This document shows, one piece after another, positions 5,730 to 13,460 of a stretch of DNA of 13,534 nt. The notes under the pieces were generated by a model, which saw only the letters and a list, made by a program, of their open reading frames with translations, was not told the origin of the DNA and made no database searches. Position numbers and translations under genes: made by a program. Origin of the DNA: Amoebidium appalachense. Lineage: Eukaryota; Protista; Ichthyosporea. Location: positions 1-13,534 of the forward strand of contig CAVNZM010000077.1 of assembly GCA_963693365.1 (NCBI GenBank), written 5' to 3'. How positions within the stretch are numbered: the stretch's first letter is position 1; every line of letters starts with the position of its first letter.

Positions 5730-6752
5730 TTATTTTTGCAATTTTGGGTCAAAAATAAGTTGCCGCGCTTGCTCCTTCCACCACTCCAGGTGCTCTCCAT
5801 CAGGGTCCAAAAATACATTGTCCTTAGCCAATCGCTCAAGCATACTTCCAAGTGTGCCCCATTGTTCGCGTAGCCAAATGGGAAAAGGCTGAATAGACGA
5901 CCCTTGGTTCACCTTGATTGACATCGATGCAGGCTGGTTGGGGAGCGTGTGAAGAAGAGCCTTACGCGAACCTCGACATTCTATCCACTCGCCTTGGCTG
6001 GCAAGTCGCCGAACCTCAAATTTTACGCCAGTGTCCAGTTTGATCCATCGGAAGCATCGCCATTTTGCGAAGTACGACAGGGGATCGGCGCAAGGGGCTA
6101 ACCACTCTGTGAACTCTGGAATGGCTTGTACATTGTGCACCTCAGGAGGCTCCACCACTCTCCCTCTTTGGCGAATATACGGCGCTAAATCTTTCGATCT
6201 TGGTCGCTTTTTCAAAGTCTCCATCAAATCGGGAACAGTCCGCGGCGGTTGCTCAGTCAGGTAATGGTTGAATCCCCGAAAGCGGCCATCGATATCCTCG
6301 TGCGTATGTCCCGGAAGAAGGAACGAACACTCCACAGTGGTGAACACACCCCTAGAAACGAGTAATTCAAAAAATTGCATCATTGCGTTGCAATGATTCT
6401 CGGAGGCGTTATCCATTTGCACGTACAACGTCTCTGGCAACGAGCCCCGTATCTCCAATTCACGCTCGATTGCCAACGTGAGTGCCGCGATTTGGACATT
6501 GGCACCCTTGCGACCGTGCTCATCCACGATTGTGTAGAGGGTGCGGCCATGAACGAGGACACTGGTTATCCGAACGGCCTTCTTGGGAATCGAGCTCGCG
6601 GCTTTGGAGTTCCAATGTACGTTCGGGATTTCGGATTTTGCTTGGTCCATTGAGTCAACGATGACACTCATGTACTTGTGTGGCTCCCGAATTGCAGCTG
6701 ACCGATGCTGGTAATAGCTCTCTCTCTCCTTTCTGTGACATCTCATGGTCAA
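5730..6752 (-). CDS. Sola-like / DUF7869-type DDD transposase catalytic domain, probably 5'-incomplete
   Basis: 340-codon ORF with motifs VIVDSMDQAK, LYVQMDNASENHCN and SFLLPGHTHEDIDGRF, recognised from memory of this family. No TIR or TSD identified. Confidence 0.75.
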   Translation of the reverse strand: MTMRCHRKERESYYQHRSAAIREPHKYMSVIVDSMDQAKSEIPNVHWNSKAASSIPKKAVRITSVLVHGRTLYTIVDEHGRKGANVQIAALTLAIERELEIRGSLPETLYVQMDNASENHCNAMMQFFELLVSRGVFTTVECSFLLPGHTHEDIDGRFRGFNHYLTEQPPRTVPDLMETLKKRPRSKDLAPYIRQRGRVVEPPEVHNVQAIPEFTEWLAPCADPLSYFAKWRCFRWIKLDTGVKFEVRRLASQGEWIECRGSRKALLHTLPNQPASMSIKVNQGSSIQPFPIWLREQWGTLGSMLERLAKDNVFLDPDGEHLEWWKEQARQLIFDPKLQK

Positions 6753-7184: not shown

Positions 7185-8190
<1,006 letters not shown>

Positions 8191-8364
8191 AATGAGTTCG
8201 GGGGGCCCAGTCTAGTTATCTCTTCTCGCCCCCTCCTCTCTTCTTCTAGTCTAAGCTTGTGTCACTATATAAGATGAAAATACAAATCCTAAATACAGAA
8301 GATGTCGAAATGTCAAAAATCCGGAAAATCGTCAATTTTGTAATTTTAATAGAGTAGAAATTGG

Positions 8365-8401
8365 GTACCTACGGAAGCCTACGGAACTTTCGCGGTGCTC
8401 C
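8365..8401 (-). mobile_element. 37-bp mitochondrial insertion element, intergenic copy
   Basis: Reverse complement GGAGCACCGCGAAAGTTCCGTAGGCTTCCGTAGGTAC matches the three tRNA-inserted copies. Confidence 0.8.
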
Positions 8402-8562: not shown

Positions 8563-8635
8563 GCTCATAAAGCTCAATTGGTTGAGCGCAGAATTGAAAA
8601 TTCTGAGGTTCTAGGTTCAAGCCCTTGGATGAGCA
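8563..8635 (+). tRNA. trnF: tRNA-Phe(GAA)
   Basis: Acceptor GCTCAT/ATGAGC; arm CAGAA-TTGAAAA-TTCTG. Confidence 0.9.
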
Positions 8636-8810: not shown

Positions 8811-8882
8811 GCTAGTGTAGCTTAATGGTGAAGCATCTGTCTTGTAAACAGAAGAATGTGGGTTCAAGTCCTACTACTAGCT
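8811..8882 (+). tRNA. trnT: tRNA-Thr(UGU)
   Basis: GCTAGTG/TACTAGC; TCTGT-CTTGTAA-ACAGA. Confidence 0.93.
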
Positions 8883-8886
8883 CTCT

Positions 8887-8959
8887 AGGTATTTAGCTTA
8901 ATTGGCAAAGCATGCAACTAATAATTGCAAGGATGATGGTTCAACTCCTTCAGTACCTA
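8887..8959 (+). tRNA. trnI: tRNA-Ile(AAU)
   Basis: AGGTATT/AGTACCT; TGCAA-CTAATAA-TTGCA. Confidence 0.87.
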
Positions 8960-8963
8960 CCTT

Positions 8964-9036
8964 ATCTCTGTAGCTCAATTGGTAGAGCATTTCACTTCCA
9001 ATGAAATTGTTATGGGTTCAAGTCTCATCTGAGATA
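8964..9036 (+). tRNA. trnG: tRNA-Gly(UCC)
   Basis: ATCTCTG/CTGAGAT (one U-U); TTTCA-CTTCCAA-TGAAA. Confidence 0.9.
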
Positions 9037-9042
9037 CGTTAC

Positions 9043-9151
9043 GAGCATATAACTTAATTATTATAGCATGCAACTAATAATTGCAATAATTATAGTTGGA
9101 GCACCACGAAAGTTCTTTAGATTTCCGTAGGTACCAACTTCTCCGTACCTA
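9043..9151 (+). pseudogene. Chimeric trnA/trnI(AAU) pseudogene with 37-bp insertion in the T-loop
   Basis: 5' end resembles trnA (GAGCATATAACTTAATT), anticodon arm identical to trnI, 3' end GTACCTA as in trnI; acceptor halves do not pair. Confidence 0.8.
9098..9134 (+). mobile_element. 37-bp insertion element in T-loop (TT^CAA)
   Basis: GGAGCACCACGAAAGTTCTTTAGATTTCCGTAGGTAC between GTT and CAACT. Confidence 0.85.
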
Positions 9152-9184
9152 CCTTATCTCTGTAGCTCAATTGGTAGAGCATTT

Positions 9185-9212
9185 GGGACGTCCAGAGTTA
9201 CCACGGCAGGAC
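9185..9212 (+). mobile_element. 28-bp insertion in anticodon stem (TT^CA)
   Basis: GGGACGTCCAGAGTTACCACGGCAGGAC, absent from the intact trnG copy. Confidence 0.75.
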
Positions 9213-9238
9213 CACTTCCAATGAAATTGTTATGGGTT

Positions 9239-9275
9239 GGAGCATCGCGAAAGTTCCATAGGCTTCCGTAGGTAC
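9239..9275 (+). mobile_element. 37-bp insertion element in T-loop (TT^CAA)
   Basis: GGAGCATCGCGAAAGTTCCATAGGCTTCCGTAGGTAC between GGGTT and CAAGT. Confidence 0.88.
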
Positions 9276-9299
9276 CAAGTCTCATCAGAGATACGTTCT

Positions 9300-9519: not shown

Positions 9520-9592
9520 CAGAAAATAGCTCAATTGGTCGAGCACTCGTTTTGGGAACGAGAGGTTATAGGTTCAAGTCCTATTTTTCTGA
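9520..9592 (+). tRNA. trnP: tRNA-Pro(UGG)
   Basis: CAGAAAA/TTTTCTG; CTCGT-TTTGGGA-ACGAG. Confidence 0.94.
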
Positions 9593-9619
9593 TCTAGTGT
9601 CGAATGTGTTACATTAGTA

Positions 9620-9692
9620 TCTTCAGTAGTTCAATAGGTAGATCACTCGTCTGTTAAACGAAGGGTTATAGGTTCGAGTCCTATCTGAAGAG
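9620..9692 (+). tRNA. trnN: tRNA-Asn(GUU)
   Basis: TCTTCAG/CTGAAGA; CTCGT-CTGTTAA-ACGAA. Confidence 0.92.
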
Positions 9693-9707
9693 GTACGAAT
9701 AGAGTCG

Positions 9708-9780
9708 AGGTATTTAGCTCAATTGGTAGAGCATAATCCTTACAAGATTACGGCTGTAGGTTCAAGTCCTGCAATACCTA
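9708..9780 (+). tRNA. trnV: tRNA-Val(UAC)
   Basis: AGGTATT/AATACCT; TAATC-CTTACAA-GATTA. Confidence 0.94.
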
Positions 9781-9794
9781 TTACACCAAAGGTA

Positions 9795-9868
9795 ATTGAT
9801 ATAGCTCAATAGGATAGAGCAGTACACTTCTAATGTACTGGTTGTAGGTTCAAGTCCTACTATCAACT
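9795..9868 (+). tRNA. trnR: tRNA-Arg(UCU)
   Basis: ATTGATA/TATCAAC (A1-C72 mismatch); GTACA-CTTCTAA-TGTAC. Confidence 0.92.
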
Positions 9869-9890
9869 AATTTGAGTACTTAATTAAGAG

Positions 9891-9973
9891 ATCTCTGTGT
9901 CGAAATTGGTAAACGAGTTGTATTAAGGGTGCAATGACGAATAGTCTTATGAGTTCAAGTCTCATCGGAGATA
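9891..9973 (+). tRNA. trnL: tRNA-Leu(AAG)
   Basis: ATCTCTG/CGGAGAT; TTGTA-TTAAGGG-TGCAA; long variable arm; Leu-type D-arm TCGAAATTGGTAAACGA. Confidence 0.88.
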
Positions 9974-9981
9974 GAGTATGA

Positions 9982-10064
9982 AGGATGATGGCTGAGTGGT
10001 CAATAGCGTATCACTGTAAATGATATCCTTTTTAGGTTCGAAGGTTCAAATCCTTCTCATCCTA
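9982..10064 (+). tRNA. trnY: tRNA-Tyr(GUA)
   Basis: AGGATGA/TCATCCT; TATCA-CTGTAAA-TGATA; long variable arm. Confidence 0.94.
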
Positions 10065-10086
10065 TTCTTAATATTGAGACAAATCC

Positions 10087-10220
10087 AAGTGTAACTTGGT
10101 TATTGTGACGATTAGGTACCAAATAACAAAGTGTAACTTGGTTATTGTGACGACTAGGTACCAAATAACAAAGTGTAACTTGGTTATTGTGACGACTAGG
10201 TACCAAATAACCAAGTGTAA
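10087..10220. repeat. 42-bp tandem repeat, 3 copies plus 8 bp, running into the trnH 5' end
   Basis: AAGTGTAACTTGGTTATTGTGACGA(T/C)TAGGTACCAAATAAC(A/C) at 10087, 10129, 10171. Confidence 0.95.
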
Positions 10221-10288
10221 GTAGATCAATTGGTTAGATCATTGATTTGTGGCGTCAAAGGTTAGTGGTTCAATTCCACTCTTACACT
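10215..10288 (+). tRNA. trnH: tRNA-His(GUG)
   Basis: GTGTAAG/CTTACAC; TTGAT-TTGTGGC-GTCAA. Confidence 0.92.
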
Positions 10289-10304
10289 CTTACATTCGAG
10301 TACA

Positions 10305-10385
10305 GAAGAGATTGCTGTTTGGTAAAGCATTCAAATTGCTAATTTGACGCCTTCGGGCTCGTGAGTTCAAGTCTCACTCTCTTCG
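10305..10385 (+). tRNA. trnS: tRNA-Ser(GCU)
   Basis: GAAGAGA/TCTCTTC; TCAAA-TTGCTAA-TTTGA; variable arm GCCTTCGGGC. Confidence 0.92.
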
Positions 10386-10394
10386 AATATTCTA

Positions 10395-10466
10395 GCACCA
10401 TTCGTCTAACGGTTAGGACCTTGATTTTTCATGTCAATAATAGTGGTTCGATTCCACTATGGTGCA
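10395..10466 (+). tRNA. trnE: tRNA-Glu(UUC)
   Basis: GCACCAT/ATGGTGC; TTGAT-TTTTCAT-GTCAA. Confidence 0.94.
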
Positions 10467-10477
10467 TACAAATAATA

Positions 10478-10551
10478 GTTGATATAGTTCAATTGGATAG
10501 AATAGTTGACTACGGATCAATAGGTTGTAGGTTCAAGTCCTACTATCAACT
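10478..10551 (+). tRNA. trnR: tRNA-Arg(ACG)
   Basis: GTTGATA/TATCAAC; GTTGA-CTACGGA-TCAAT. Confidence 0.93.
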
Positions 10552-10605
10552 TACAAACTTAAGATTACTTTAACCACTCTAACTTTTAGGAGAAGAGATA
10601 ACATA

Positions 10606-10714
10606 TCTAGTGTAGCTTAATGGTGAAGCATCTGTCTTGTAAACAGAAGAATGTGGGTTAGAGCACCGCGAAAGTTCCATAGATTTCCGTAGGTACCAAG
10701 TCCTACTGCTAGCT
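10606..10714 (+). pseudogene. trnT: Second trnT(UGU) copy with 37-bp T-loop insertion
   Basis: Matches 8811-8882 apart from the insertion and two acceptor-stem changes (G1>T; TACTAGC>TGCTAGC). Confidence 0.87.
10660..10696 (+). mobile_element. 37-bp insertion element in T-loop (TT^CAA)
   Basis: AGAGCACCGCGAAAGTTCCATAGATTTCCGTAGGTAC between GGGTT and CAAGT. Confidence 0.88.
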
Positions 10715-12194: not shown

Positions 12195-13460
12195 ATGGAA
12201 AAATATCTTTATAAAAATAATAATAATCCTATCTTAGCGATAGTTAATTGAATGGTTGTGCGCTTGGCAGTGCCAAGTTATTTTAGTTATTTATGAAATT
12301 TTGGTTCCTCTTCTGGAATTTGTTTAGTAGTACCAATGTTAATTGGAGTATTTATATCCATACTCCAACCCGGGCATGTTAATTTAACATCCCAAGTAGT
12401 AGTAGTATTAGGAGATCCGGTATTATGATTAATCTGAGGCTTATATGTATATGTAGCCTCGGTGTTCTTCATCCTATTTGGAATAGTAAGGAGATATTAC
12501 AATGAGTTACAAGCCTTTGTAACATCTGCCTTTGAAGATTATAAAGATACGTTCGTATCTTTAATTTATTTATGAGCAGCTTACTTATTATTAGTTGCAT
12601 TAGTTTTATTTACTGTTGGTATCAAATTCTGCGAGAATATTTATCGAACCTATTCTAGGTATAGTCGATTATATTCTACGCTACCAGCACCAGATACTCT
12701 TTATGATAGTGACTATTTTACGTTTGAAAATAAACAGATACACCAAGCCTATTTAATTGGATTACTAGATGCTTGTGGCTGGGTTTCTGTTAGTAAGGAT
12801 AAGAAGGGAGTACAACATGAAATAGGGATGGAATTACCTATAGAAAATGAGGATCTTGTTAAATTATTGCATCAAGCAACTAAAATAGGTACTATAAGTT
12901 ATAAAAGTAATATTTCAGGGTCTCGCACGATACAGTGAAAGATTAGAGATAAAGTACATTTAACTTATCTATCTGTTCTCCTCTATAAGTACCCTTTATT
13001 AACCAGTAAACATTCTGATTTTCAACATTTTATTGACACTATGCATATTAAATCTTACCAGGATCTTCCGGATTATACTCGTCCTTCAAATTCTCACTTG
13101 ACAATCGTAGAAATATTGAGTACTTCGTATTTCAAAGAGTGGCTAGTGGGGTATTTAGAGGTTAAAGCTCGCTTTAAATTCTATAGAATAAATCATCTTA
13201 AGACAGCTAGGTTCGAAATTACTTCTATTACAGATTATAATATATTCGCAGCCATAGCTCATTTCTTAGATTTAAACCATAAAATGAGTCCCGATGCAGG
13301 TTCCTATCAGTTTAGAAGCCATAACATTGGTGTTCTTAAAAAAGTTATCTCTTTCTTTTCTCTCACGTCTGTGTCCATGCTAGGTGCTAACCTATTACAT
13401 TATAAGACATGATTAGCTCACTTACGTGTACTTCCTCATTATCGTAATAAACTATCTTAA
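12195..13460 (+). CDS. 421-aa ORF: degenerate cytochrome b-like N-terminal membrane region fused to a degenerate double-motif LAGLIDADG domain
   Basis: Read codon by codon with TGA=Trp: no TAA/TAG from ATG 12195 to TAA 13458-13460. N-terminus NPILAIVN...SYLWNFGS..GICL; motifs YLIGLLDACG (12750-12779) and WLVGYLEVKA (13140-13169); KYPLLTSK. Confidence 0.88.

What the first reader, a model, noticed from the sequence alone, without database searches (positions are those of the whole stretch)
9156..9293. A second, 28-bp element uses the same TT^CA rule, and the doubly interrupted trnG has the better acceptor stem
Seen: a 28-bp insert with a different interior (GGGACGTCC...GGCAGGAC) lies in the anticodon stem at TTT^CAC. 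It also starts GG, ends AC and has no TSD. This site is not a T-loop, so the target appears to be the DNA word TT^CA rather than tRNA structure, which also argues against pure gene conversion. The interrupted copy has a perfect 7-bp acceptor stem while the intact copy has a U6-U67 mismatch. Inference: several element families share one mobilising enzyme; the interrupted copy is either very young or still functional after excision.
Basis: partly seen in the sequence, partly recalled or inferred. Interest (0 to 1): 0.72.

Follow-up and report, generated by a model that had tools for sequence, protein, structure and literature searches.

The report
Tiny repeats interrupt spare mitochondrial tRNA
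Two short DNA snippets (28 and 37 letters) sit cleanly inside a second copy of a mitochondrial glycine tRNA gene and likely disable it; the longer one is an abundant repeat at many sites, the shorter was seen only in copies of this one gene, and both were likely copied in by recombination rather than by a dedicated enzyme.

Summary
A 28-bp insert (9185-9212) and a 37-bp insert (9239-9275) interrupt a tandem copy of mitochondrial trnG(UCC) at TT^CA, without target duplication. The only other difference from the intact gene is A67 against U67. Exact contigs in five public runs show the 28-mer is no consensus error.

The shared ends (GG...AGG(T)AC) and junctions are unlikely to be chance. But TT^CA is not the rule: the 37-mer's commonest listed flanks are CT and CC, and only T^C is constant. 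The 28-mer was found only inside trnG-derived copies, at least six of them diverged, so it looks like one insertion spread by duplication, neither a shown family nor very young. The better stem is weak evidence: 3 of 24 intact tRNAs carry an acceptor mismatch, and the other two interrupted tRNAs have worse stems.

Best reading: short, non-hairpin dispersed repeats of a multi-chromosome, Amoebidium-like (inferred) mtDNA knocked out a redundant tRNA copy, likely by homology-guided copying. A dedicated enzyme stays possible. Excision to a working tRNA could not be tested and is unlikely.

The parts
9156..9293 (+). Doubly interrupted copy of trnG(UCC), likely a pseudogene
   Evidence: 1 difference in 73 from intact trnG once inserts are removed; no ARAGORN or Rfam hit
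9185..9212 (+). 28-bp insert, 64% GC, in the anticodon stem (29/30), TT^CA, no target duplication
   Evidence: single in the window; elsewhere seen only in trnG-derived copies; folds no better than shuffles, z 0.42
9239..9275 (+). 37-bp insert in the T-loop (55/56), TT^CA, no target duplication; member of a high-copy repeat
   Evidence: summed depth 9,397 against about 400 (X2), 493 against 14 (X4), 973 against about 19 (X8)
9287..9287 (+). A67, which closes the acceptor stem (intact copy has T at 9030)
   Evidence: a diverged interrupted copy also matches through 9287 (records 4, 12, 18)
8964..9036 (+). Intact trnG(UCC) with U6.U67 mismatch; the empty-site reference
   Evidence: ARAGORN; Rfam tRNA 66.6 bits
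9037..9155 (+). Decayed chimera of trnA 5' part and trnI 3' part, the junction of the tandem duplication
   Evidence: 6 of 29 and 7 of 54 differences from trnA and trnI
9098..9134 (+). 37-mer copy in the T-loop of the chimera, TT^CA
10606..10714 (+). Interrupted copy of trnT(UGU); acceptor stem worse than the intact gene (U1.C72, U6-G67)
   Evidence: 2 of 72 differences from 8811-8882
10660..10696 (+). 37-mer copy in the T-loop of the trnT copy, TT^CA, starts AG
8365..8401 (-). 37-mer copy outside any tRNA, flanks AT and CC, near the likely chromosome end
   Evidence: its right flank resembles the commonest class
10087..10220 (+). 42-bp unit x3.2 ending at the trnH 5' end; each unit holds TT, GG...AGGTAC, CAA, the same right end as the 37-mer (no empty site seen)
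   Evidence: further dispersed copies (loose ends at 10135/10174)
8200..8310 (.). Very high-copy block, likely the end repeat shared by many linear mitochondrial chromosomes
   Evidence: summed depth 30,216 against 320-650 for unique contigs in X2; identity as a terminus is inferred
12195..13460 (+). cob fragment fused to an I-AniI-like LAGLIDADG domain lacking both motif acidic residues; unlikely mobiliser

Best explanation
Two short GC-rich repeats sit, without target duplication, at T^C junctions of a tandemly duplicated mitochondrial trnG and likely make it a pseudogene; they were likely copied in by recombination or repair guided by short matches at their ends, not by a dedicated integrase. 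Steps: (1) shown: a duplication with its junction inside trnA/trnI gave a second trnG and a chimera; (2) shown: the 37-mer is a high-copy dispersed repeat, always listed with T before and C after, in T-loops of six tRNA types and in non-tRNA sites; (3) inferred: its right end GTAGGTAC followed by C(C)AA resembles the T-arm GTAGGTTCAA, which makes T-loops a hotspot and lets filled T-arms spread among near-identical tRNAs; (4) inferred: the 28-mer is a rare relative with the same ends that entered trnG once, probably before the 37-mer; (5) shown: the filled gene exists in many diverged copies; (6) inferred: intact trnG supplies tRNA-Gly, and the window's dead copy stays alike through conversion from its neighbour 192 bp away or through having worked until it was hit.
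For: Clean filled/empty pairs for trnG (two sites), trnT and trnI. 37-mer after T55 in trnP-, trnM- and trnQ-like contigs (joints 9574-10656, 10860-10656, 8401/8693). GTAGG is the T-stem 5' strand in 8 of 24 tRNAs. trnG-flanked contigs account for the depth over the 28-mer: 1,049 of 1,042 (X2), 334 of 338 (X19), 67 of 62 (X4), summed by hand. Six diverged copies listed in X2 with 3-14 differences, some inside the 28-mer. X2 records 8 and 13 stop at 9237/9238, as copies with only the 28-mer would. The other two interrupted tRNAs have worse stems; 3 of 24 intact tRNAs have an acceptor mismatch. The one endonuclease-like ORF lacks both motif acidic residues. Multiple gene copies and fragments on many linear chromosomes are reported for Amoebidium (passages, PMC2151934).
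Against: No donor copy of the 28-mer with matching flanks was seen, so homology guidance is untested for it. Precise junctions with constant T^C at several unrelated sites, and an apparently empty AAAACTCCAATT motif beside the CT/CC class, fit an enzyme equally well. The window's interrupted trnG is far closer to its parent (1 of 73) than the neighbouring chimera (13 of 83; Fisher p=0.0015), and a diverged copy pairs the 28-mer with an undecayed trnI 3' end (table 5c); conversion is invoked for this, not shown. With the terminal dinucleotides fixed, 28-mer/37-mer likeness is not significant (p 0.14-0.22).
Confidence: 0.55

Rival explanations
1. One site-specific enzyme recognises the shared ends GG...AGG(T)AC and a loose word T^C(C/A)(A/C) and inserts several tiny non-autonomous elements without target duplication; the interrupted tRNAs are still dead.
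For: Every listed junction keeps T before and C after. GG...AGG(T)AC ends arise in 0.03% of 28-mer shuffles (post hoc pattern). Both TTCA sites of trnG are filled. The 42-bp unit repeats the same right end. A filled and an apparently empty version of the AAACT/CCAAT motif both occur.
Against: No candidate enzyme: the window's LAGLIDADG ORF is degenerate, and no whole genome was held to search. Only one insertion event of the 28-mer is visible. Copies starting AG (10660) or ending GC (X19 row 9273) exist. Neither element forms a stable hairpin.
Confidence: 0.28
2. The inserts are removed from DNA or RNA, and the interrupted copy yields a working tRNA-Gly with the perfect stem.
For: 72 of 73 positions match the intact gene while the neighbouring chimera decayed (p=0.0015). 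Precise removal would restore the gene.
Against: The interrupted trnT and trnI copies have damaged stems. Diverged trnG copies accumulate changes in both gene and insert. No Rfam intron match. The inserts end in AC, not G as group I introns do, and are far too short for group II introns (recalled). The intact gene scores as well as the other tRNAs (66.6 bits, range 45.5-73.2).
Confidence: 0.07
3. The 28-mer is an unrelated one-off insertion (a captured fragment at a repaired break) whose likeness to the 37-mer is coincidence.
For: No second site found; interior likeness not significant; the comparison was made after seeing the sequence.
Against: Site (about 1 to 2 in 72) and ends (1 in 100) would both have to match by chance.
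Confidence: 0.08
4. The insert is an assembly or consensus error.
For: The window looks joined from nuclear and mitochondrial DNA near 8190.
Against: Exact contigs in five runs of five studies, one a possible source, and diverged copies with the same insert.
Confidence: 0.02

Closest known systems
Double-hairpin elements (DHEs) of Allomyces and fission yeast mtDNA
   Same: Short, GC-rich, dispersed, probably mobile; Allomyces elements lack flanking duplications (passage in PMC2800124, citing Paquin 2000, which I did not read).
   Different: Neither insert folds better than shuffles; GC 46-64%, below the >75% scan used in PMC10085805; fission yeast DHEs lie in spacers and rRNA genes, here the inserts break tRNA genes.
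Yeast mitochondrial GC clusters (GC42 and relatives)
   Same: About 40 bp, multi-copy, short target preference, mobilising enzyme unknown (passages, PMC4478555).
   Different: GC clusters are flanked by AG or ACT direct repeats and are palindromic; here no duplication and no stable stem.
MUSE1 of Podospora mtDNA
   Same: Very short, invasive, recombinogenic dispersed repeat without its own enzyme (passages in PMC7218506 and PMC7272585; primary paper not held).
   Different: 11 bp against 28-37 bp; no sequence comparison made; its target rule was not seen by me.
Amoebidium parasiticum multi-chromosome mtDNA
   Same: Many linear chromosomes with shared end blocks, multiple gene copies and fragments, look-alike trnM/I/V/T/A (passages); the window shows a very high-copy end block and diverged tRNA copies.
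   Different: The organism is inferred from architecture, not identified. The primary paper (Burger et al. 2003) was not held, so it may already describe these repeats.
HUH transposons (IS200/IS605, IS91)
   Same: Recalled, no call: insertion beside a short fixed word without target duplication; precise excision in IS200/IS605.
   Different: No transposase found; no terminal hairpins; the elements are far shorter; only a lead for the enzyme rival.

Membership tests
Double-hairpin elements | Two stable hairpins | tested here: not met
   z-scores 0.42 (28-mer) and -0.74 to 1.61 (four 37-mers) against 200 shuffles, DNA parameters
Double-hairpin elements | No target-site duplication | tested here: met
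   filled/empty pairs in trnG, trnT, trnI
Double-hairpin elements | Very high GC (>75% in the fission yeast scan) | tested here: not met
   46-64% against 35% background
Yeast GC clusters | Short direct repeat (AG or ACT) on both sides | tested here: not met
Short dispersed mobile mitochondrial repeats (general) | Many copies at unrelated sites: 37-mer | tested here: met
   4 copies in the window, six tRNA types and at least three non-tRNA flank classes
Short dispersed mobile mitochondrial repeats (general) | Many copies at unrelated sites: 28-mer | tested here: inconclusive
Short dispersed mobile mitochondrial repeats (general) | Presence/absence polymorphism between isolates | not testable with these tools
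   only contigs of coded runs; no whole genome held
   3 of 4 window copies; in X19, left edge CT in 6 contigs against TT in 4, right edge CC in 6 against CA in 1 among listed rows
   28-mer and 3 of 4 window 37-mers; 1.0% of shuffles; variants AG... and ...GC exist
   no genome held; the window's LAGLIDADG ORF lacks both motif acidic residues
Group I / group II / tRNA introns | Intron core structure and end nucleotides; canonical position | tested here: not met
   no Rfam intron hit at E<=1; inserts lie at 29/30 and 55/56; the 3' AC fits group II ends (recalled) but nothing else does
Group I / group II / tRNA introns | Spliced product in RNA | not testable with these tools
   no RNA holder on record, contigs only

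The most novel reading that the evidence does not exclude
A mitochondrial system of 22-37-bp non-autonomous elements with shared ends GG...AGG(T)AC, moved by one sequence-specific enzyme that leaves no duplication and can excise them precisely, so that interrupted tRNA genes such as this trnG are switched back on.
Probability: 0.1. Interest if true: 0.8.

Novelty: new variant of a known kind. Interest (0 to 1): 0.36.

Why it matters
How tiny mitochondrial repeats move is an open question; the papers consulted leave transposition, reverse transcription and gene conversion all open (passages). This genome offers clean filled/empty pairs, constant T^C junctions, no hairpin and no duplication, so it is a good place to tell an enzyme from homology-guided copying. 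If only the best explanation holds, it is a modest addition: a repeat that kills spare tRNA copies in a repeat-rich, fragmented mtDNA. If the enzyme-and-excision reading held, it would be a new class of organellar mobile element.

Tried and rejected
No whole genome held. Exact 28-mer in metagenome contigs: 0; degenerate 37-mer core in metagenome and viral contigs: 0 and 0. No RNA holder listed. X19 is only guessed to be RNA; its different depth profile was not used as expression evidence. X8 has no cover over the 28-mer, which proves nothing. The absence of a skip joint at 9184/9213 or 9238/9276 is uninformative: the intact gene itself produced none. nad6 homologue search gave unnamed relatives at 60% or less over full length and did not identify the organism; atp9 is in NCBI nr and UniRef, name not shown. 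Hairpin reading rejected. 28-mer as a deleted 37-mer: p 0.012-0.048 for full shuffles but 0.14-0.22 with ends kept, so only the ends are shared. 7-mer match of the 28-mer's end to the trnV T-arm: one of 19 such 7-mer hits, treated as chance. Modelling 37-mer depth as mitochondrial plus nuclear copies did not fit X19 (hand calculation); dropped. Earlier findings of the scan: none. Literature searches for repeats inserted in mitochondrial tRNA genes gave 0 papers; four Amoebidium searches listed no paper whose title or abstract start treats these repeats. No supplements were opened.

Full report
Setting. The window has two parts. Bases 1 to about 8190 look nuclear: EGF-repeat exons, microsatellites and a DUF7869 frame. 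From about 8200 it is mitochondrial in type: 24 tRNA genes on one strand, atp9, nad6 and a cob fragment fused to a LAGLIDADG domain, read with TGA as Trp. In run X2 the block 8200-8310 has a summed depth of 30,216 against 320-650 for unique contigs, as an end repeat of many linear chromosomes would. This and the look-alike tRNAs fit what secondary papers report for the ichthyosporean Amoebidium (passages of PMC7027106, PMC2518934, PMC2151934, PMC8303319). The organism is inferred, not identified. The primary paper was not held, and no whole genome was held.

The observation. It is correct. The 28-mer lies at 9185-9212 between positions 29 and 30, the 37-mer at 9239-9275 between 55 and 56, both at TT^CA with no duplicated bases. 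Apart from them the copy differs from intact trnG at 1 of 73 positions, A67 for U67. Six runs were laid in two calls, two of them twice. Five show exact contigs through the insert (X1, which may be the source, X2, X4, X14, X19); X8 has no cover there. X14 shows mostly C>T and G>A changes, and one loose end equals 9190-9219 with every C read as T; the neighbouring bins have depths of about 2,500-2,900, so the insert lies on an abundant molecule (inference). TTCA occurs at 2 of 72 bonds in trnG and both are filled; shuffled 28-mers start GG and end AC in 1.0% of 200,000 trials. The shared signature is real.

How the second trnG arose. Bases 9037-9155 are a chimera of the trnA 5' part (6 differences in 29) and the trnI 3' part (7 in 54), with a 37-mer in its T-loop. 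This is the junction expected from a tandem duplication by unequal exchange between trnA and trnI (inference), which left trnG in two copies 192 bp apart.

Is TT^CA the rule? No. Of four 37-mers in the window, three lie at TT^CA in T-loops and one (8401-8365, minus strand) lies outside tRNAs with AT before and CC after; one starts AG. The 37-mer is abundant: summed depth 9,397 against about 400 in X2, 493 against 14 in X4 (overlapping contigs inflate such sums). Among the 24 of 55 loose-end rows shown, the largest class has a left flank ending CCTAAACT and a right flank beginning CCAA: in X19 six contigs read CT at the left edge against four TT, and six read CC at the right edge against one CA; X8 and X4 show three CT contigs each. 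The runs resample the same loci, so these are not independent counts. Every listed junction keeps T before and C after. A motif AAAACTCCAATT without an insert lies about 15 bases downstream in some of these contigs, which suggests that this class is also a clean insertion. The 37-mer also follows T55 in trnP-, trnM- and trnQ-like contigs.

Is the 28-mer a second family? Not shown. It is single in the window and absent from the metagenome collection. Every listed contig over it carries trnG flanks. X2 lists two exact contigs (429x, 375x) and six diverged copies (3-14 differences, 11-39x), with a seventh implied at 55x; several recur in X19 and X4. Summed by hand, these account for the depth over the insert: 1,049 of 1,042, 334 of 338 and 67 of 62. 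This is one insertion multiplied by copying the broken gene. Two X2 records stop exactly where the 37-mer begins, which suggests copies with only the 28-mer and hence the order 28-mer first (inference). The 28-mer resembles the 37-mer at its ends only (p 0.012-0.048, but 0.14-0.22 with ends fixed). The 42-bp repeat before trnH has the same right end, AGGTAC then CAA.

The better acceptor stem. It carries little weight. Three of 24 intact tRNAs have one acceptor mismatch (trnF, trnG, trnR), and intact trnG scores 66.6 bits with Rfam, mid-range. The interrupted trnT has a worse stem than its parent and the trnI copy is decayed. A diverged interrupted copy also matches through A67, so A67 is probably the older state and U67 a tolerated change. 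One result cuts the other way: the interrupted trnG is much closer to its parent than the chimera is to its parents (1 of 73 against 13 of 83, p=0.0015), and a diverged copy joins the 28-mer to an undecayed trnI end. Conversion from the neighbour, or function until the insertions, would explain this; neither is shown. RNA could not be examined.

Mechanism. Neither insert forms a stable hairpin. The window's LAGLIDADG frame aligns with I-AniI and a maturase (E about 1e-32) but has C and K where the I-AniI motifs have D and E, so it is unlikely to cut (catalytic role of these residues recalled). The 37-mer ends in GTAGGTAC; GTAGG is the T-stem 5' strand in 8 of 24 tRNAs, and in the trnT copy the insert's end even forms a substitute T-arm in the predicted fold. 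I therefore favour copying guided by short end matches, followed by spread among near-identical T-arms (0.55), over one site-specific enzyme (0.28), a coincidental one-off (0.08), excision to a working tRNA (0.07) and artefact (0.02).

Comparison and novelty. It works like the short invasive repeats of fungal, algal and sponge mtDNA (passages of PMC4478555, PMC10085805, PMC2800124, PMC2670323, PMC7218506, PMC7272585). It is not a double-hairpin element (no hairpins) or a yeast GC cluster (no duplication). Searches for such repeats inside mitochondrial tRNA genes returned no paper, but the library lacks the primary Amoebidium paper, so prior description cannot be excluded. Passages of PMC7194472 and PMC11244446 added nothing on these repeats. 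Verdict: a real, non-hairpin, duplication-free variant of a known kind; interest 0.36.

Noticed in passing
window 8150-8250: Nuclear-type DNA joins mitochondrial-type DNA at a G-rich run. Either an assembly misjoin at a chromosome end or a nuclear insertion; no reads were laid across it.
   Followed up: partly
window 10087-10220: 42-bp unit, 3.2 copies, whose last 8 bases are the 5' end of trnH; its core recurs elsewhere with other flanks and shares the 37-mer's right end. Possibly a third element.
   Followed up: partly
window 10606-10714: The interrupted trnT folds as a cloverleaf in which the insert's end pairs as a substitute T-stem with an 8-nt loop.
   Followed up: partly
window 12195-13460: 421-codon frame: cob-like start (weak Pfam match) fused to an I-AniI-like domain without the motif acidic residues. 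A stranded first exon plus maturase, a trans-spliced piece or a pseudogene.
   Followed up: partly
window 8887-8959, 9891-9973, 10478-10551: tRNAs with A at the wobble position: Ile(AAU), Leu(AAG), Arg(ACG). No Leu(UAA) gene in this cluster.
   Followed up: no
window 8563-8635 and 9795-9868: Acceptor mismatches in intact trnF (A7.G66) and trnR(UCU) (A1.C72); the latter is where 5' editing acts in some protists (recalled).
   Followed up: no
run X19: Diverged tRNA copies and the 37-mer are far deeper than the window's own sequence, the reverse of X1 and X2. Unexplained.
   Followed up: partly
window 5730-6752 (minus): 340-codon frame with DUF7869 (E 2.5e-34) inside the nuclear-type part, probably transposon-derived (recalled).
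   Followed up: partly
window 8368-8386 and 9254-9272: The right half of the 37-mer is a 10-bp unit in about two copies.
   Followed up: no
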